Assembly: GCF_022347785.1 (NCBI RefSeq)
Contig: NZ_JAKRGA010000005.1
Location: 163,519-227,518, forward strand
Source: Psychrobium sp. MM17-31
GTDB taxonomy: Bacteria > Pseudomonadota > Gammaproteobacteria > Enterobacterales > Psychrobiaceae
Length of the DNA: 64,000 nt
Direction: 5' to 3'
Shown: piece by piece, positions 32,816 through 63,038 of the stretch
Position numbering within the stretch: position 1 is the first letter of the stretch
Layout: every line of letters starts with the position of its first letter
The notes under the pieces: generated by a model
What the model saw: the letters and a program-made list of their open reading frames with translations, nothing else
What the model was told of the DNA's origin: nothing
Databases searched by the model: none
Made by a program: the position numbers and the translations under genes

Positions 32816-32889
32816 AACTTAGAGTGGGAATCGAACCCACAACCAACGAATTAATAGTTCGCTGCTCTATCCAATTGAGCTATCTAGTT
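32816..32889 (-). ncRNA. Degenerate tRNA-like element, unit 2 (D-arm TAGCTCAATTGGATAGAGCA, T-arm GTGGGTTCGATTCCCAC)
   Basis: The reverse complement has canonical D and T arms. The acceptor stem has 2 mismatches (AACTAGA/TCTAAGT). The anticodon loop CUAUUAA would give A34, which is non-canonical. Confidence 0.5.
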
Positions 32890-32958
32890 TTAAGGAGGGA
32901 CTCGAACCCCCAACAGCCAATTCCTATAATTGGTGCTCTACCATTGAGCTACTTAATG
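32887..32958 (-). ncRNA. Degenerate tRNA-like element, unit 1 (D-arm TAGCTCAATGGTAGAGCA, T-arm GGGGGTTCGAGTCCCTCC)
   Basis: The D and T arms are canonical. The acceptor pairs at 5 of 7 positions. The anticodon loop lacks U33. The unit overlaps unit 2 by 3 nt. Confidence 0.5.
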
Positions 32959-35386: not shown

Positions 35387-35463
35387 GGCCCGTTAGCATA
35401 ATTGGTTAATGCACTCGCCTCATAAGCGAGCCGATGGCAGTTCAAATCTGCCACGGGCCACCA
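35387..35463 (+). tRNA. tRNA with CAU anticodon (Met, or Ile2/lysidine type)
   Basis: The sequence is GGCCCGT...ACGGGCC-A-CCA, 77 nt. The anticodon stem-loop is CTCGC-CTCATAA-GCGAG. The T-arm is GGCAGTTCAAATCTGCC. The acceptor end resembles E. coli tRNA-Ile2. Confidence 0.85.
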
Positions 35464-53333: not shown

Positions 53334-54526
53334 ATGCCAATTGCGTTACTCGCACTGACGCTCAGTGCCTTTGCTATTGGAACAACCGAATTTGTTATCG
53401 TTGGCTTGGTACCGACAATTGCACAAGATCTTGGAATTTCGCTGCCATCGGCGGGACTATTGGTTAGTCTCTACGCCCTTGGGGTCGCCGTTGGTGCGCC
53501 GGTGCTAACCGCCTTGACAGGTCGCTGGAACAGAAAATTAGTGCTATTGGCGTTAATGGCGCTATTTGTGGTCGGCAATCTTATCGCTTGGCAGGCGCCG
53601 AGTTATGAAACGTTGATCATCGCCCGAATTGTCACTGGTTTAGCCCATGGCGTATTTTTCTCAATTGGCTCTACCATTGCCACAGGTTTGGTAGCCAAGG
53701 AAAAAGAAGCTAGTGCCATTGCCATCATGTTCACTGGTTTAACTGTCGCACTAGTGACAGGCGTTCCCTTGGGCACCTTTATCGGCCAAGAGTTTGGCTG
53801 GCGCGCCACTTTCTTAGTCGTTTCAATGCTCGGCTTAATCGCCTTAATCGGCAGCGCATTCCTCGTACCATCGAATTTAAAGCAGCCTAAAGCCGCTAAA
53901 ATATCTGAGCAATTAAAAGTGCTGACCCAGCCGCGCTTACTATTGATATACGCCATGACAGCTGTTGGCTATGGCGGGACTTTCACAGCCTTTACTTATT
54001 TAGCACCAATCTTGGAACAAGAATCGGGTTTCGCTTCCAGTACTATTGGCCTCATTATGCTGGTGTACGGTGTTTCAGTCGCCATTGGCAATATTTGGGG
54101 TGGTAAGCTGGCTGATAACATGGGGCCAATCAAGGCGTTACATATTATTTTTACCGCTTTAGCCCTTGTGTTCTTGTGTTATTGGCGTTTACCTTTACCG
54201 CGGGTAGTCAAATTGGCGCCGTGCTAACTGTGTTAATTTGGGGAGCATTCGCCTTCGGTAATGTGCCGGGATTACAAGTATACGTCGTTCAATTAGCGCA
54301 AAAATACACGCCAAACGCAGTGGATGTTGCATCGGGCTTAAACATTGCGGCATTTAATATAGGTATTGCCTTTGGCTCTATCGTCGGCGGCATTATCGTT
54401 GAAGAAATGACTCTGATGGATACACCGTGGATTGGTGCGTTAATCGTTGGCTTTGCCATAGTATTAACAAGGGCTTCAGGCTTTTTGGACAACCGCGATC
54501 AACAAGGACTGGCCACCACTCGCTAG
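53334..54526 (+). pseudogene. MFS transporter interrupted by a -1 frameshift near 54176-54227
   Basis: ORFs 53334..54227 and 54176..54526 together make one 12-TM MFS protein. The frames are offset by 1 nt in the overlap. Confidence 0.55.
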
Positions 54527-59734: not shown

Positions 59735-60211
59735 ATGAAAAAAGGCTCTTATCAAAATCACTAATCAACCTTGGATATAAAAAACATACAGCGCGGATAA
59801 TTCCCGCTGTTTAGCGTCTTAAATTAGAAATTGACCAAAGCAAAAATCAGGGATGATTTTTGAGCATTTGCCGCATGGATGCGGATCAAATACGGCTTTG
59901 ATAAGTCAATTTATCATTTAAGAATAATCGCTAAACCTCGGGTCGCCTTTCTTTTGGTTACTTTTCTTTGTAAGTCTCGTCCTGAGACTTATCGCTACGC
60001 GACCTGCTAACGCAGTCCAAGAATACTCCAGATATTCTAGTGGCGACGCACAAATTTGTTTGGAACAAATTTGAATAGCCGAAGGCTATCCATAGGGGGA
60101 AATACACGGAGGTATTTCATTAAAGAAAAGTAACTGGTGTGCTATCGATTATTTCAATAAAGCATTCAAATTTAATAAGCACACCAAACATTCTGAATAC
60201 CTAAGTTTGGT

Positions 60212-62926
60212 CTATTTAGTTTTTTGCATCTTGTTAGGGAAAATTTCGCTATTCAATCGGCTTTTGATTTCATCCACACATCGCTGTGGCTCAGTTAGCC
60301 ACAAGCCATAACTAATAGGCAAAATCTCAATCCCTGCCCGTTGTAGCACCTTATAAGTATTAAGCTCAAAGAAATCTGCCCATGGGCCGGGATAACCAAT
60401 GAGATCTAACGCCAGATACTTACCATTGAAGCGACATAGTAAATCCACTTCAACACCAGCGACGTGATAGCCGGGCCAAGATTCGATATCATCGCGCGCT
60501 AATTGCGCCATCAGCGCTTGCTGAAAGGCGTCAATCGACGCATTTTGACTGTGGTTCACTTCGAACTGACCAGTAGCCATTAAGTATTTTCGCAGTAAAT
60601 TCGAATCAGGTAATAATTGCTCATCGATGGACACAAATAGCTGCTGTCGCTGCCTTGCACGAGTGATACAAACGTTAAATACATCCGCTTTATTGAGATA
60701 AGCCGCGGCGCGAGTGCTGTTGTTATCAACACTAAAGGCAATGAGCATAATATCGCGCTCTTCCCCCTGAAAACCGAACGGCGTGGCAGCACGTAAGTTA
60801 TGAATCGCGATTTGCTGTTCATCAAAAGTCGTTTCTATTGCCTTAGCAATATGTTCTGCCTGATGTCTAAACGGCGAAACTACGCCGATACTGTGATTAA
60901 TTCCCGCCGCTTCGTCGCTAGCAATTTGCTGCTTAATCGCGACAATTACCGCGTTAGTTTCTGCTTGGTTGATACCCTTGGCATCGCGCTCACCGTTAAC
61001 ACGCACAACGTCCAAATAGCCGCTATTAGTGCATGGGCGATGTTGCATGATTTTGAGTTTGTTTTGGTAAAACTGCTGGTTGCTAAAATCGATCAATTCG
61101 GGCTTGCTACGAAAATGTTCATCTAGCATCGCTACTTGTTGCTGACAATTGAGGGCCTGCAATGACAAATCTAAGATTGAATTGTCACGATAGCTTACAA
61201 CGCCACTTTGAAAATCGGTCAACTGATGCTTAGTCAGTAACTGACTTTCCTTGGATTTAGCCAAAAACGAGTAGTGACGTAGCTGTTTGGTATCCCCAAC
61301 AATTAAAGCTCGCTTTGCGCGATATAACGCTGGTAAGCAGCTGCTGATATTACATTGCGTAGCCTCATCAATGATGACCACATCGAACATTTCTTTATGC
61401 AATGGCAAAATGCGATAGAGTGAGTTGAGGCTCATTAGCCACACTGGAAAGGCTTTAAACAACGCCGTAAACTCAATGTCTTCGAACATCTCAGCTTGAC
61501 GTTTTGAGGTGCGACTGCGAATCGCTTGATTAAAGGCTTGTAATGATTGGCGATCATTTTTAAGTAGCGACAACAAATTACTATTTTTTACGGCACTTAA
61601 AAATTCGGCTGCAGCCAGCTCGCGCTTAACACTCAAATCATTGATTTGCCCCAACGCTTGCCATTGCTCAGCCAAGCCACCAATTTTGCTGCCAACAAAG
61701 AACAGATAAAATTTATACAGCCAATCACTATCCCGCTCGCTCAATTGGTGCAGCCGCTGGCCGCGCTTAATGGCTTTTTTACAGAACTTTATAAAGCGCT
61801 GCTCAAGTGCGGTTAGCGAGTGATTTAATTCCAGCAACTCCTTTTCACACACCTCGCTACCATTGAGTTTATCGTCCGTTAGATAACCAGCGAGTAAATC
61901 GGCAATATAGCTCTTAAGCTGTTTTAAAAACTCCTTTTTACCAGCACGAACAGACACACCACCTAAGCCAAAATTTTGTTCGAGCTTGTCACCAATCACG
62001 TCCAATGCAGCGTCATTATTAGCGATTATTAACACCGATTCTCCACGCGCCATATGCTCAGCCGCCACCGCTGCAATGGTGTAACTCTTACCTGTCCCCG
62101 GTGGCCCTGAAACACAACCCAACTGCGCATTAGCAGCGATAGAAATCACCTTTTGTTGCGGTGTTGATAACAGCCCCGGCAAATAACCGTATTTGAGTTT
62201 TTTATTGGCTTTGAATTGCTGCTTGTTGTCAGAGAACAGCTCCACCAAAGGCGCGGATACACTATTGAGTTCGGCGATACTTTCCAGTTCATGCAACACG
62301 CCGCGGCTACTGCTAGCACGCTCAACAAACGCCAACATCGAAACAGGCAATATAGAGAGCGTTTTACGGCGCAGCCCCTTTTTCACATCCTCTTGCGTCA
62401 TCAATTGAGGAAAATTAAGTAATTCGAGGGCATTAATATTGTGAGGAGAATTCGCCAGCAATGACGTCCACAAAGATGGCGCCTGCAGGTTATCTTCGTC
62501 TTGCAACAGCTGATGAATATCGACTTCGGGTAGCAATAACTCAACTAAGGTCTCATTTAGCTCAGGCTGTTGATTTACTGTAGAAAAACAGAAACCCTGC
62601 TCATCGTTTTCAATCGCAGCTTCGTTGAATAATAAAGGGGCGGCAATCTGTTTGCGCTCTCCTTTGAGCTCTACCGTGCCAACCACCATAAAACTAACAT
62701 AGAGCAGAATACGCTCTCTTTGGTAAGTTTCCACCCGCCCTTGCATGGTTTGCGCAAACTCGGTCGGCAATGGTAAACGAGGTAAAAAACCACTGCCTAG
62801 GTCATCACGCCCCTGCAAATACCAAACATCTTCCGCCTTTAATTTTTGCAACATCCACAAATTTAAATCGGCGCTATCTTCTTGATAGCAATCCCTGTAG
62901 TACGACAAGATGTTTGAATAATTCAC
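60212..62926 (-). CDS. Upf1-like superfamily-1 helicase fused to C-terminal PD-(D/E)xK/Vsr-DUF559-like endonuclease domain, with N-terminal unknown domain
   Basis: It has Walker A (GPPGTGKSYTIAAVAAEH), the Walker B/motif II (VIIDEATQ), and a C-terminal block (GYHVAGVEVDLLCRFNGKYLALDLIGYP...AGIEILPISYGLW). Confidence 0.7.
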   Translation of the reverse strand: MNYSNILSYYRDCYQEDSADLNLWMLQKLKAEDVWYLQGRDDLGSGFLPRLPLPTEFAQTMQGRVETYQRERILLYVSFMVVGTVELKGERKQIAAPLLFNEAAIENDEQGFCFSTVNQQPELNETLVELLLPEVDIHQLLQDEDNLQAPSLWTSLLANSPHNINALELLNFPQLMTQEDVKKGLRRKTLSILPVSMLAFVERASSSRGVLHELESIAELNSVSAPLVELFSDNKQQFKANKKLKYGYLPGLLSTPQQKVISIAANAQLGCVSGPPGTGKSYTIAAVAAEHMARGESVLIIANNDAALDVIGDKLEQNFGLGGVSVRAGKKEFLKQLKSYIADLLAGYLTDDKLNGSEVCEKELLELNHSLTALEQRFIKFCKKAIKRGQRLHQLSERDSDWLYKFYLFFVGSKIGGLAEQWQALGQINDLSVKRELAAAEFLSAVKNSNLLSLLKNDRQSLQAFNQAIRSRTSKRQAEMFEDIEFTALFKAFPVWLMSLNSLYRILPLHKEMFDVVIIDEATQCNISSCLPALYRAKRALIVGDTKQLRHYSFLAKSKESQLLTKHQLTDFQSGVVSYRDNSILDLSLQALNCQQQVAMLDEHFRSKPELIDFSNQQFYQNKLKIMQHRPCTNSGYLDVVRVNGERDAKGINQAETNAVIVAIKQQIASDEAAGINHSIGVVSPFRHQAEHIAKAIETTFDEQQIAIHNLRAATPFGFQGEERDIMLIAFSVDNNSTRAAAYLNKADVFNVCITRARQRQQLFVSIDEQLLPDSNLLRKYLMATGQFEVNHSQNASIDAFQQALMAQLARDDIESWPGYHVAGVEVDLLCRFNGKYLALDLIGYPGPWADFFELNTYKVLQRAGIEILPISYGLWLTEPQRCVDEIKSRLNSEIFPNKMQKTK

Positions 62927-62990
62927 TAAATGGCATCCACGCTATTTCACAATTGGCTACAAAGTGTAACCCGATTCCTTAGAACTTTCC

Positions 62991-63019
62991 GAACAAAAAA
63001 GCCCTTCCGAAGAAGGGCT
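62991..63019 (-). terminator. Rho-independent terminator for the 63039..63827 gene (AAGCCCTTC-cgaa-GAAGGGCTT followed by a U-run on the minus strand)
   Basis: The plus strand has the A-run AACAAAAAAG upstream of the hairpin. This becomes a U-run after the hairpin on the minus strand. Confidence 0.6.
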
Positions 63020-63038
63020 TAAGTATTAACAACTCGAA

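What the first reader, a model, noticed from the sequence alone, without database searches (positions are those of the whole stretch)
60212..62926. Single-gene helicase-nuclease (Upf1-like SF1 helicase plus C-terminal restriction-endonuclease-like domain), a candidate Hhe-like defence protein
**Seen in the sequence.** The 904-aa minus-strand ORF has an N-terminal domain of about 250 aa with no recognisable motif. A Upf1/DNA2-type helicase core follows (GPPGTGKSYT, VIIDEATQ). The C-terminal 130 aa fit a PD-(D/E)xK/Vsr-like fold (...VDLLCRF...LALDLIGYP...AGIEILPISYGLW). It is preceded by an unusually long (477-bp), hairpin-rich convergent intergenic spacer, and its own terminator is absent.

**Established knowledge.** Single-protein helicase-Vsr/DUF559 fusions (Hhe) have been reported as anti-phage systems.

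**Inference.** This could be such a defence gene or a related uncharacterised variant with a novel N-terminal sensor domain.
Basis: partly seen in the sequence, partly recalled or inferred. Interest (0 to 1): 0.6.

Follow-up and report, generated by a model that had tools for sequence, protein, structure and literature searches.

The report
Compact Hhe-related helicase, doubtful nuclease domain
This is a real, strongly conserved 904-residue helicase gene that is a half-sized distant cousin of the anti-phage protein Hhe, but it sits in ordinary chromosomal surroundings, its "nuclease" domain has lost most catalytic residues, and nothing here shows that it defends against phages.

Summary
The ORF 60212..62926 (-) is real, and NCBI already annotates it generically as an "AAA domain-containing protein" of Psychrobium sp. 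MM17-31. It has three parts:
- An N-terminal domain (residues 1-252) found only in this family.
- An intact Upf1/Sen1/Dna2-type SF1B helicase core with a coiled-coil insert.
- A C-terminal Vsr/MTES_1575-type restriction-endonuclease fold (hhalign 95.8 %, E 8e-9).

The Hhe assignment is not: Hhe, PDC-S37, Mokosh and ProA models match only the helicase core, far below their cut-offs. The protein is half their size, lacks DUF3320, and shows only a faint DUF4011-like motif.

In the C-domain only two of five canonical active-site positions survive (D828, D841). The helix-1 Glu, the second acid and the His are lost.

The family is small: 497 of 1.84 billion representative proteins, almost always 880-940 aa. 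It is essentially absent from plasmids (1 of 72,556), phages and viral contigs. It has no conserved partner gene, and its neighbours are ordinary metabolic and regulatory genes, not defence genes.

Most likely it is a stand-alone chromosomal nucleic-acid translocase with a remodelled or DNA-binding REase domain. A defence role is possible but unsupported. The 477-bp spacer is truly structured and holds a borderline TwoAYGGAY RNA hit and a candidate terminator.

The parts
60212..62926 (-). Complete gene: 904-aa stand-alone SF1B helicase with flanking domains (stop codon 60212-60214)
   Evidence: ORF list. There are 531 homologues, full-length at 46-79 % identity in Alteromonadales. The identical NCBI protein is WP_239440317.1. 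Gene GC is 0.448 against 0.435 for the window.
62171..62926 (-). N-terminal family-specific domain (residues 1-252): a long four-stranded sheet plus helices
60617..62170 (-). Upf1/Sen1/Dna2-type SF1B helicase core (residues ~253-770), RecA1 + RecA2
   Evidence: Pfam AAA_11 at residues 255-549 and AAA_12 at 593-760. The PDB profile search hits Sen1, IGHMBP2, Upf1 and Dna2. Foldseek hits SETX, Upf1 and Sen1 at E 1e-23 to 1e-17.
62084..62107 (-). Walker A / motif I, GPPGTGKS (residues 274-281)
   Evidence: Invariant in 36 homologues.
61355..61369 (-). Motif II DEATQ (residues 520-524)
   Evidence: D520, E521, A522 and Q524 are invariant.
61556..61858 (-). Long antiparallel coiled-coil insertion in RecA1 (residues ~357-457), in the position of the Upf1-like stalk/1C accessory element
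   Evidence: AF2 secondary structure gives helices H357-397 and H401-457. The equivalence to the Upf1 stalk is an inference.
60251..60544 (-). C-terminal Vsr/MTES_1575-type REase-fold domain (residues ~795-892) with a reduced active site. D828 is at 60443-60445 and D841 at 60404-60406.
   Evidence: Topology is alpha-beta-beta-beta-alpha-beta. Sub-threshold Pfam MTES_1575 hits occur in 13 of 36 members and reach E 1.9e-7 in divergent members. hhalign against 5 genuine MTES_1575 domains gives 95.8 %, E 7.9e-9. D828 is kept in 79/79 and D841 in 78/79. The helix-1 Glu aligns to position 802, which is variable and mostly Q. The second acid aligns to I/V843. The His is absent.
62927..62998 (-). Probable promoter / 5' UTR region of the gene. 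It is monocistronic.
   Evidence: A strong terminator of the upstream membrane-protein gene lies at 63020..62999 (9-bp stem followed by TTTTTTG). No LexA box is present. The promoter itself is not identified; this is an inference.
60072..60092 (-). Candidate intrinsic terminator of the helicase gene, about 120 nt past the stop codon
   Evidence: Terminator scan finds TGGATAGCCTTCGGCTATTCA followed by AAATTTGTTCC. An adjacent palindrome lies at 60051-60073.

Best explanation
**What it is (shown).** The gene encodes a stand-alone, chromosomally inherited SF1B helicase. It belongs to a small family with a fixed architecture, about 500 clusters at 50 % identity, almost always 880-940 aa. The architecture has three parts:
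- A family-specific N-terminal domain with no solved structural relative and at most a faint DUF4011-like core.
- A catalytically intact Upf1/Sen1/Dna2-type motor with a coiled-coil insert.
- A C-terminal Vsr/MTES_1575-type restriction-endonuclease fold.

It is a compact, distant cousin of the roughly 1,500-2,000-aa DUF4011-helicase-MTES_1575-DUF3320 proteins (Hhe, PDC-S37). It is not a member of any of them.

**How it works (inferred).** The motor hydrolyses ATP and translocates 5'->3' along single-stranded DNA or RNA, as SF1B enzymes do. The C-domain keeps the two invariant metal-binding aspartates (D828, D841). It has lost the helix-1 Glu, the second beta3 acid and the His of canonical Vsr/MTES_1575 sites. 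It therefore most likely acts as a metal-dependent DNA-binding or structure-recognition module, or as a remodelled weak nickase, rather than a canonical nuclease effector. The N-domain probably provides substrate or partner specificity.

**Cellular role (inferred).** The protein is strongly conserved along its whole length and is absent from plasmids, phages and defence islands. Its location is stable within clades in ordinary neighbourhoods. The most likely role is therefore resident nucleic-acid surveillance or processing: genome maintenance, or removal of aberrant DNA or RNA-DNA structures. A mobile immune function is less likely.
For: **Helicase identity and intact motifs.**

**C-domain.** Homology to MTES_1575 rests.

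**N-domain.** It is unique and always N-terminal in proteins of about 900 aa: 497 hits in 1.84e9 representatives. It has no structural neighbour.

**Not Hhe, PDC-S37, Mokosh or ProA.** Hits are partial and cover only the core, far below cut-offs. Genuine comparators score 1152 and 521 bits and carry DUF4011 at 146 bits, MTES_1575 at 117 bits, and DUF3320.

**Chromosomal and not mobile.**
- One full-length hit in 72,556 plasmids, on an 859-kb replicon.
- None in 50,697 phage records.
- None in 2.9 M viral contigs.
- Gene GC equals window GC.

**Genomic context.**
- No partner gene is conserved in more than 12 of 80 loci.
- Among 148 non-redundant nearest neighbours, each PADLOC family is hit by at most one protein.
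- The neighbours are GGDEF, MFS, LysR, hydrolases, TonB receptors, RdgC and Tag, with only 2 transposases.
- Synteny is stable within clades.
- There are 302 allelic variants in the Shewanella algae group, in a decarboxylase / permease / porin / radical-SAM context.

**Precedent.** A large DUF4011 helicase gene is a core gene present in every P. aeruginosa isolate (PMC10250203).
Against: - All the closest characterised bacterial relatives by HMM (PDC-S37, MkoC/MkoA, Hhe, ProA) are anti-phage proteins.
- The gene's location differs between genera. The identity tree shows horizontal transfer: S. gelidii is 78 % identical to Colwellia, but at most about 64 % to other Shewanella. There are scattered full-length members in Bacteroidota, Acidobacteriota, Planctomycetota and Clostridia MAGs. 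This is an accessory-gene-like pattern.
- In Pseudomonas and Motilimonas the gene is translationally coupled to a PLD-type nuclease. That domain pairing recalls Mokosh.
- The strict invariance of D828 and D841 argues that the C-domain site is functional and could still cut DNA.
- No experiment, expression data or fitness data were available. No SOS box or other regulatory clue was found.
Confidence: 0.55

Rival explanations
1. The protein is a single-gene Hhe-like anti-phage system. The helicase senses phage DNA-metabolism intermediates. The C-terminal Vsr-like nuclease then degrades phage or host DNA, and the N-domain acts as the sensor.
For: - The helicase plus REase module is collinearly homologous to Hhe/PDC-S37-type proteins.
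- One such relative sits next to brxL on an Acinetobacter plasmid.
- The two metal-binding Asp residues are invariant.
- There is some horizontal transfer, and genomic location varies between genera.
- Hhe is described as a single helicase-nuclease gene triggered by phage DNA-metabolism genes (bioRxiv 10.1101/2024.10.10.617714).
Against: - It fails every curated model cut-off by more than 10-fold.
- It lacks a DUF4011 hit at threshold, lacks DUF3320, and is missing about 1,000 aa.
- Three of the five canonical REase active-site positions are lost across the family.
- There is no defence-gene or mobile-element enrichment among 148 neighbours.
- It is essentially absent from plasmids, phages and viral contigs.
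- It shows high full-length conservation (65 % mean column identity) and clade-stable synteny.
Confidence: 0.22
2. The protein is a Mokosh-like RNA/DNA-targeting module. It acts as the helicase partner of a PLD-family nuclease encoded elsewhere, as in the PLD-HEL pairs of Pseudomonas and Motilimonas. Its own REase-like domain is non-catalytic.
For: - The best PADLOC helicase-core matches include MkoC and MkoA.
- In about 10-12 loci a PLDc_2 protein sits immediately upstream with a -1 nt overlap. That protein hits DrmC at 2.5e-11 and the PLD region of MkoC at 2e-8.
- It lies within a block of flotillin-like gene, DUF3686 AAA ATPase, rhomboid, PLD and HEL.
Against: - The PLD partner is present in only about 12 of 80 loci and is not in this window.
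- The MkoA and MkoC matches cover only the helicase core, at 110-156 bits.
- The block lies beside recJ in a conserved chromosomal context.
- No PADLOC system model matches the DUF3686 protein.
Confidence: 0.08
3. The protein is a fully active helicase-nuclease for DNA repair or recombination, analogous to Dna2 or AddAB. The C-domain uses a rebuilt active site (D828, D841, E854, K859, Y858) to cleave displaced strands.
For: - D828 and D841 are invariant. Y858 and R863 are invariant. E854 is E or D in 63 of 79 members, and K859 is K or R in 62 of 79.
- The helicase core is Dna2/Sen1-like.
- The context is chromosomal and stable.
- Some neighbours are DNA-repair genes, such as RdgC, Tag and recJ, though each appears only once.
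Against: - There is no LexA box.
- E854 and K859 are not universally conserved.
- No repair gene is a consistent neighbour.
- His is essential in Vsr itself (established knowledge of Vsr), and it is missing here.
Confidence: 0.15

Closest known systems
Hhe (HheA; Gao et al. 2020 single-gene helicase + Vsr-like nuclease defence protein; NCBIfam NF042953, PADLOC PDLC02194)
   Same: Both are single polypeptides with an SF1B Upf1-like helicase followed by a Vsr/MTES_1575-type REase fold. The homology is collinear from the second half of the helicase into the REase domain. A faint DUF4011-like motif lies in the N-domain.
   Different: This protein is 904 aa, against about 1,800-1,900 aa. It scores 120 bits against a cut-off of 2000. 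It has no DUF4011 hit at threshold and no DUF3320/wHTH tail. The REase active site is reduced to 2 of 5 positions. It is not in defence islands or on mobile elements.
PDC-S37 (PADLOC phage-defence candidate; e.g. Paracoccus yeei WP_099650739.1, 1,968 aa)
   Same: This is the best PADLOC hit (2e-49). It has the same type of helicase core and REase.
   Different: The match covers only profile positions 918-1269 of 1550, at 166 bits. The genuine member scores 1152 bits over positions 9-1529. The genuine member also has DUF4011 at 146 bits, MTES_1575 at 117 bits, and DUF3320.
Mokosh MkoA / MkoC (Upf1-like helicase with PLD nuclease)
   Same: Both have a Upf1-like helicase core (156 and 110 bits). 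Some relatives of this gene are paired with a PLD nuclease.
   Different: There is no PLD domain in the protein and no PLD gene in this window. A REase fold takes the place of PLD. The N-terminal regions are unrelated.
Eukaryotic SF1B helicases Sen1/SETX, Upf1, IGHMBP2, Dna2
   Same: These are the closest solved structures for the motor, with the same motif set and accessory insertions in RecA1.
   Different: Identity is only 14-16 %. The N- and C-terminal domains are different. In Dna2 the nuclease is N-terminal and belongs to a different PD-(D/E)xK family.
MTES_1575 REase (Pfam PF18741; 'novel Vsr-REase', Anantharaman et al. 2013, PMC3710099) / DUF559 / Vsr
   Same: The fold is the same and homology is demonstrable (hhalign 95.8 %, E 7.9e-9). 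The beta2 Asp and the first beta3 acid are conserved.
   Different: It scores below the Pfam gathering threshold in every member tested (13-31 bits against 38.2). The helix-1 Glu, the second acid of 'ECDG' and the His of 'YH' are lost.
Core 'large DUF4011 gene' flanking defence hotspot cDHS1 in Pseudomonas aeruginosa (PMC10250203)
   Same: It is a helicase of the same broad architecture class that behaves as a conserved chromosomal core gene rather than as a mobile defence gene.
   Different: It has a canonical DUF4011 and is much larger. Orthology was not tested here.

Membership tests
Hhe (HheA) | Full-length match to the curated Hhe model at its cut-off (NCBIfam NF042953, 2000 bits; PADLOC Hhe) | tested here: not met
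   NCBIfam scores 119.7 bits, matching residues 488-830 only. PADLOC Hhe scores 76.9 bits. For comparison, a PDC-S37/Hhe-type protein scores 521 bits.
Hhe (HheA) | N-terminal DUF4011 domain | tested here: inconclusive
   There is no DUF4011 hit in the window protein, and it is not among the recurrent families in 36 members. Weak hits occur in 2 divergent members: E 0.011 and 0.075, against a cut-off of 22.2 bits. hhalign against one genuine DUF4011 gives E 1.4e-3 at 18 % probability, covering residues 62-134 only. AFDB comparison was not available.
Hhe (HheA) | SF1 Upf1/Dna2-type helicase core with intact ATPase motifs | tested here: met
   AAA_11 and AAA_12 are present. The Walker A, DEATQ, QGxExD and TRAR motifs are invariant.
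Hhe (HheA) | Vsr-like (MTES_1575/DUF559) nuclease domain after the helicase | tested here: met
   Fold and homology are shown by hhalign at 95.8 %, E 7.9e-9. Divergent members reach Pfam E 1.9e-7 over the full profile. Topology agrees. Every member scores below Pfam's gathering score.
Hhe (HheA) | Canonical catalytic residues of the Vsr/MTES_1575 site: helix-1 Glu, beta2 Asp, beta3 Glu-x-Asp, His | tested here: not met
   Only D828 (79/79) and D841 (78/79) are retained. Position 802 is Q44/L7/R7/E5/G5. Position 843 is I71/V8. The His position is gapped or Pro.
Hhe (HheA) | C-terminal DUF3320 / wHTH region | tested here: not met
   The protein ends about 12 residues after the REase domain, and there is no DUF3320 hit. 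The genuine comparator has DUF3320 at 62 bits.
Hhe (HheA) | Anti-phage activity | not testable with these tools
   This needs plaque or infection assays.
Anti-phage defence genes in general | Enrichment next to known defence genes or mobile elements (defence-island criterion) | tested here: not met
   148 non-redundant neighbours (two genes on each side) were scanned. Each PADLOC family is hit by at most 1 protein, and there are 2 transposases. One of 72,556 plasmids carries a full-length copy; no phage record or viral contig does. This is a sample of about 46 loci, not a genome-wide statistic.
PDC-S37 (PADLOC) | Full-length coverage of the 1,550-position model | tested here: not met
   It scores 166 bits over profile positions 918-1269. 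The genuine member scores 1152 bits over positions 9-1529.
Mokosh (MkoA+MkoB / MkoC) | Upf1-like helicase combined with a PLD nuclease, fused or adjacent | tested here: not met
   There is no PLD domain in the protein and no PLD gene among the window neighbours. A PLD neighbour is present only in the Pseudomonas and Motilimonas relatives.
Upf1-like SF1B helicase superfamily | RecA1/RecA2 core with motifs I, II, III, V and VI, and structural similarity to Upf1/Sen1/IGHMBP2 | tested here: met
Upf1-like SF1B helicase superfamily | 5'->3' translocation polarity | not testable with these tools
   This is inferred from the established behaviour of SF1B enzymes.
TwoAYGGAY RNA (RF01731), in the spacer and not part of the gene | Covariance-model score at or above the gathering score, with two hairpins bearing AYGGAY loops | tested here: inconclusive
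   It scores 43.6 bits against a gathering score of 43, but only with permissive filters. It is not reported in gathering mode. The loops are CAGGGAUG and CAUGGAUG.

The most novel reading that the evidence does not exclude
The family could be a minimal, domesticated Hhe-type immune or surveillance protein. In this reading the structurally novel N-domain is a new nucleic-acid or phage-factor sensor. The remodelled two-aspartate REase site is a new catalytic variant of the Vsr fold, activated only on sensing. That would make it a roughly 900-aa single-chain sensor-motor-effector, resident in the core chromosome of marine Gammaproteobacteria. In Pseudomonas and Motilimonas it would be wired to a PLD nuclease, a DUF3686 AAA ATPase, a rhomboid and a flotillin-like protein in a so far undescribed multi-gene system.
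Probability: 0.2. Interest if true: 0.6.

Novelty: new variant of a known kind. Interest (0 to 1): 0.35.

Why it matters
If the reading is right, this is a cautionary example. The helicase + Vsr-REase architecture is often taken as a signature of the Hhe anti-phage system. Here it also exists as a compact, conserved chromosomal family with a degenerate nuclease site and no defence-island signature. Domain composition alone therefore should not be used to call defence genes.

The analysis also defines a small uncharacterised family of about 500 clusters. Its N-terminal fold is confidently predicted yet matches no solved structure. Its two-aspartate Vsr-fold site is unusual and biochemically testable.

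The recurrent block of PLD, rhomboid, DUF3686 ATPase and flotillin-like genes around the Pseudomonas and Motilimonas orthologues is an undescribed module that may reveal the pathway in which the helicase works.

Tried and rejected
- **C-domain profile against PDB sequences.** No hit even at E <= 10.
- **C-domain profile against the 5.8-billion-protein word index.** It returned only C-terminal fragments of the same family.
- **afdb50 Foldseek for the N-domain.** This would have exposed DUF4011 models, but the library was unavailable.
- **More DUF4011 templates from plasmid hits.** The roughly 1,500-aa Variovorax, Microvirga, Ralstonia and Acinetobacter proteins lack a canonical DUF4011, so only one template was usable.
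- **LexA/SOS box upstream.** There was one chance-level match in 80 loci.
- **Spacer as a repeated REP/MITE-like element, or conserved in relatives.** No copies were found in the window or in the loci.
- **Longer family variants (about 1,075-1,090 aa).** They have the same REase-like domain plus a helical tail without a Pfam match, which gave no functional clue.
- **Literature.** Nothing was found on DUF3686. Only four papers mention MTES_1575. No mechanistic paper on Hhe was found.
- **Pseudogene or relic reading.** Rejected, because all domains are under strong conservation (65 % mean column identity).
- **Recent horizontal acquisition in this genome.** Rejected on composition: gene GC is 0.448 against 0.435 for the window. 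The neighbouring membrane-protein gene is also shared with the closest relative, L001.


Full report
**Observation.**

The window contains a 904-codon ORF on the minus strand at 60212..62926, starting with GTG. The identical 904-aa protein is deposited for Psychrobium sp. MM17-31 as an "AAA domain-containing protein / DEAD/DEAH box helicase", along with an 898-aa version from a downstream start. Homologues begin at the position of the GTG start.

GPPGTGKSYT lies at residues 274-283 and VIIDEATQ at 517-524. Both are invariant in an alignment of 36 full-length homologues of 46-79 % identity. Pfam places AAA_11 at 255-549 and AAA_12 at 593-760, and nothing at threshold in residues 1-250 or 770-904.

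The intergenic spacer 59735..60211 is 477 bp and convergent. As minus-strand RNA it folds far better than shuffled controls: -146.9 against -103.5 +/- 6.1 kcal/mol, z = -7.1. The one detail that does not hold is "terminator absent". A 9-bp GC-rich hairpin followed by a T-rich tract lies on the minus strand at 60092..60072, about 120 nt after the stop codon.

**Anatomy.**

An AlphaFold2 model built on the 36-sequence alignment is confident, with mean pLDDT 81 and pTM 0.72. It shows four elements:
- An N-terminal domain (1-252) built around very long beta-strands (72-87, 90-108, 111-116, 190-202) with flanking helices.
- RecA1 (about 269-550), interrupted by a roughly 100-residue antiparallel coiled coil (357-457).
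- RecA2 (about 590-770).
- A C-terminal alpha-beta-beta-beta-alpha-beta-alpha domain (800-892).

Foldseek with the whole model against the PDB returns SETX, Upf1, Sen1, IGHMBP2, Aquarius, Dna2 and ZNFX1, at E 1e-23 to 1e-14. A sequence profile against the PDB gives the same set. The motor is therefore a Upf1-like SF1B helicase with every ATPase and helicase motif intact. Translocation in the 5'->3' direction follows from established knowledge of SF1B enzymes and is inferred here.

**C-terminal domain.**

The window protein gives only a sub-threshold hit to Pfam REase_MTES_1575, though it spans the full profile (E 0.087). The same hit recurs in 13 of 36 members. It strengthens in the most divergent full-length relatives: E 1.9e-7 over profile positions 1-96 of 96 in a Marinilabiliaceae MAG, with others at 6e-4 to 0.03.

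A tblastn search of plasmids retrieved genuine proteins of this class. One is a Paracoccus yeei 1,968-aa protein with DUF4011 (146 bits), MTES_1575 (117 bits) and DUF3320. Another is an Acinetobacter 1,576-aa protein beside brxL.

A profile of 79 family C-domains aligns to five genuine MTES_1575 domains with 95.8 % probability and E 7.9e-9 over 94 columns. MTES_1575 was defined as a "novel Vsr-family REase" fused to SF-I helicases (PMC3710099).

The residue map, however, is unfavourable for a canonical nuclease. The genuine domains share ES.FE in helix 1, RID in beta2, and ECDGxxYH in beta3.

| Canonical MTES_1575 position | Position in this family | State across 79 members |
|---|---|---|
| beta2 Asp of RID | D828 | kept in 79/79 |
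| first beta3 acid of ECDG | D841 | kept in 78/79 |
| helix-1 Glu of FE | 802 | variable: Q44, L7, R7, E5, G5 |
| second acid of ECDG | 843 | Ile or Val in all 79 |
| His of YH | gapped / P846 | absent |

Possible substitutes are E854 (E or D in 63 of 79) and K859 (K or R in 62 of 79), but neither is universal. The site is thus either remodelled or reduced to metal-dependent DNA binding. That cannot be decided computationally.

**N-terminal domain.**

An exhaustive HMMER search of 1.84 billion representative proteins with the N-domain profile finds only 497 proteins at E <= 1e-3, and 372 at E <= 1e-10. In the best 150, the domain always starts at residue 1. Complete proteins are almost always 880-940 aa. 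A few are about 1,075-1,090 aa; these carry the same REase-like domain plus a helical tail.

There is a faint link to DUF4011:
- Two divergent members give sub-threshold Pfam hits to the last third of DUF4011, at E 0.011 and 0.075.
- The family profile aligns residues 62-134 to the same part of the Paracoccus DUF4011, at E 1.4e-3 but only 18 % probability. The motif correspondence is plausible...APLL..EA...IN..L..LL.

I regard this as suggestive, not established. The AFDB library that could have settled it was unavailable.

**Relationship to known defence proteins.**

| Model | Score of this protein | Region matched | Comparison |
|---|---|---|---|
| PADLOC PDC-S37 | 166 bits | profile 918-1269 of 1550 | genuine Paracoccus protein: 1152 bits |
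| PADLOC MkoC | 156 bits | helicase core | - |
| PADLOC MkoA | 110 bits | helicase core | - |
| PADLOC Hhe | 77 bits | helicase core | genuine Paracoccus protein: 521 bits |
| NCBIfam ProA | 170 bits | helicase core | cut-off 1500 |
| NCBIfam Hhe | 120 bits | residues 488-830 | cut-off 2000 |

The window protein is about half the length of those proteins and lacks DUF3320. It is therefore a distant, compact cousin of the DUF4011-SF1-MTES_1575 class, not a member of Hhe, PDC-S37, Mokosh or ProA.

**Distribution and context.**

Full-length relatives occur throughout Alteromonadales at 45-79 % identity: Colwellia, Thalassotalea, Pseudoalteromonas, Shewanella, Psychromonas and the Alteromonadaceae. 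At 33-39 % they occur in the Pseudomonas mendocina and straminea groups, Photobacterium, Microbulbifer, Motilimonas and Endozoicomonas. Scattered members appear in Bacteroidota and in other-phylum MAGs.

I clustered the ORFs flanking the gene in 80 genome loci. No neighbouring gene family is shared by more than 12 loci, so there is no family-wide partner gene. Synteny is conserved only within narrow clades, such as the S. cutis / decolorationis / hafniensis group, the S. indica / chilikensis / algae group, pairs of Psychromonas and Photobacterium species, and the Pseudomonas groups.

I then took 148 non-redundant nearest neighbours, two genes on each side, from about 46 loci:
- No PADLOC family is hit by more than one protein.
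- The Pfam content is GGDEF, MFS, LysR, hydrolases, TonB receptors, beta-lactamase-fold proteins, EamA, RdgC, Tag, Syd and similar, with only two transposases.

In the window itself the neighbours are a membrane protein, SnoaL-like proteins, an alpha/beta hydrolase, AraC and LysR regulators, a flavodoxin-like reductase and an MFS transporter. The upstream membrane-protein gene ends in a strong terminator, so the helicase gene is monocistronic. Gene GC (0.448) matches the window (0.435).

Evidence on mobility:
- One of 72,556 plasmids carries a full-length member, an 859-kb Persicobacter replicon at 28 % identity.
- No phage record does.
- None of 2.9 million viral contigs does.

The best-sampled cluster holds 302 sequence variants at 90 % identity or more, from Shewanella algae and S. 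chilikensis. It lies in a decarboxylase / permease / porin - HEL - radical-SAM context. That is what a species-wide resident gene looks like.

Against purely vertical descent, the identity tree makes Shewanella and Pseudoalteromonas polyphyletic. S. gelidii is 78 % identical to Colwellia, while other Shewanella are at most about 64 % identical to it. Some horizontal transfer has therefore occurred.

For comparison, a large DUF4011 gene is reported as a core gene present in every P. aeruginosa isolate, where it flanks a defence hotspot without being part of it (PMC10250203).

**Interpretation.**

What is shown:
- An intact SF1B motor.
- A Vsr/MTES_1575-fold C-domain with two invariant aspartates but without three canonical residues.
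- A family-specific N-domain of unknown fold.
- A small family with a fixed architecture.
- Chromosomal residence in ordinary neighbourhoods.
- No membership of any curated defence family.

What is inferred is that the protein is a resident nucleic-acid translocase. Its C-domain would recognise, and perhaps weakly nick, a DNA structure. Its N-domain would confer specificity. It would work in genome maintenance or surveillance rather than as a mobile immune gene. I put about 0.55 on this package.

The Hhe-like defence reading keeps about 0.2. The nearest characterised bacterial relatives are all anti-phage proteins, Hhe's own mechanism is still unknown, the two aspartates are invariant, and the gene does move between lineages. 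A fully active repair nuclease-helicase gets about 0.15. A Mokosh-like role with a PLD partner gets about 0.08.

**Novelty and value.**

The gene is already annotated generically, but the family is uncharacterised. It is best described as a new compact variant of a known kind, the helicase + Vsr-REase proteins. The result lowers the original interest, because the defence call rested on domain composition that does not survive the membership, catalytic-residue and context tests. It leaves three concrete curiosities: the N-domain fold, the two-aspartate Vsr site, and the Pseudomonas/Motilimonas module of PLD, rhomboid, DUF3686 ATPase and flotillin-like genes.

Noticed in passing
window 59812-59928 (+), inside the 477-bp spacer: There is a borderline match to the Rfam family TwoAYGGAY RNA (RF01731): 43.6 bits against a gathering score of 43, E 4e-6. 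It has two adjacent hairpins with loops CAGGGAUG and CAUGGAUG inside an outer stem. It is found only with permissive filters and not in gathering mode. It would be an element independent of the helicase gene, and it explains part of the long, structured spacer.
   Followed up: partly
window 59930-60211 (both strands): The rest of the spacer contains several strong hairpins, for example GTAAGTCTCGTCCTGAGACTTAC near 59970-59992, GGATAGCCTTCGGCTATTC at 60072-60092, and the palindrome CAAATTTGTT/AACAAATTTG at 60051-60073. Overall z is -7.1. The sequence is not repeated elsewhere in the window and is not conserved in related loci.
   Followed up: partly
L043 1373-10691, and equivalents in L045, L048, L050, L057, L058, L060, L062, L066, L073: In the Pseudomonas mendocina/oleovorans group and in Motilimonas, the orthologue is the last gene of a recurrent block. 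The block is a flotillin-like protein, then a 1,786-aa DUF3686 + DUF7902 + AAA_5 ATPase, then a rhomboid, then a PLDc_2 nuclease, then the helicase. The last junction overlaps by 1 nt. In Pseudomonas the block lies beside recJ. No literature on DUF3686 was found.
   Followed up: partly
window 53334-54526 (+): An MFS-type transporter appears split into two overlapping ORFs, 53334..54227 and 54176..54526. This suggests a frameshift, a pseudogene or a sequencing error.
   Followed up: no
L063 and L064: Contigs binned as a Blastocatellia MAG and a Clostridia MAG carry helicases 64 % identical to each other. They also share the same flanking gene clusters (c141, c142, c143, c37). This suggests that at least one bin assignment is wrong, or that a block was transferred recently.
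   Followed up: no
L093 8802-11162, and PMC10250203: In the Shewanella algae group the helicase is convergent with a YgiQ-type radical SAM gene. The core 'large DUF4011 gene' of P. aeruginosa is also described as adjacent to a radical SAM gene. This may be coincidence and was not tested.
   Followed up: no
window 32816-32956 (-) and 35387-35460 (+): Three tRNA genes are the only Rfam matches at gathering stringency in the whole window.
   Followed up: no
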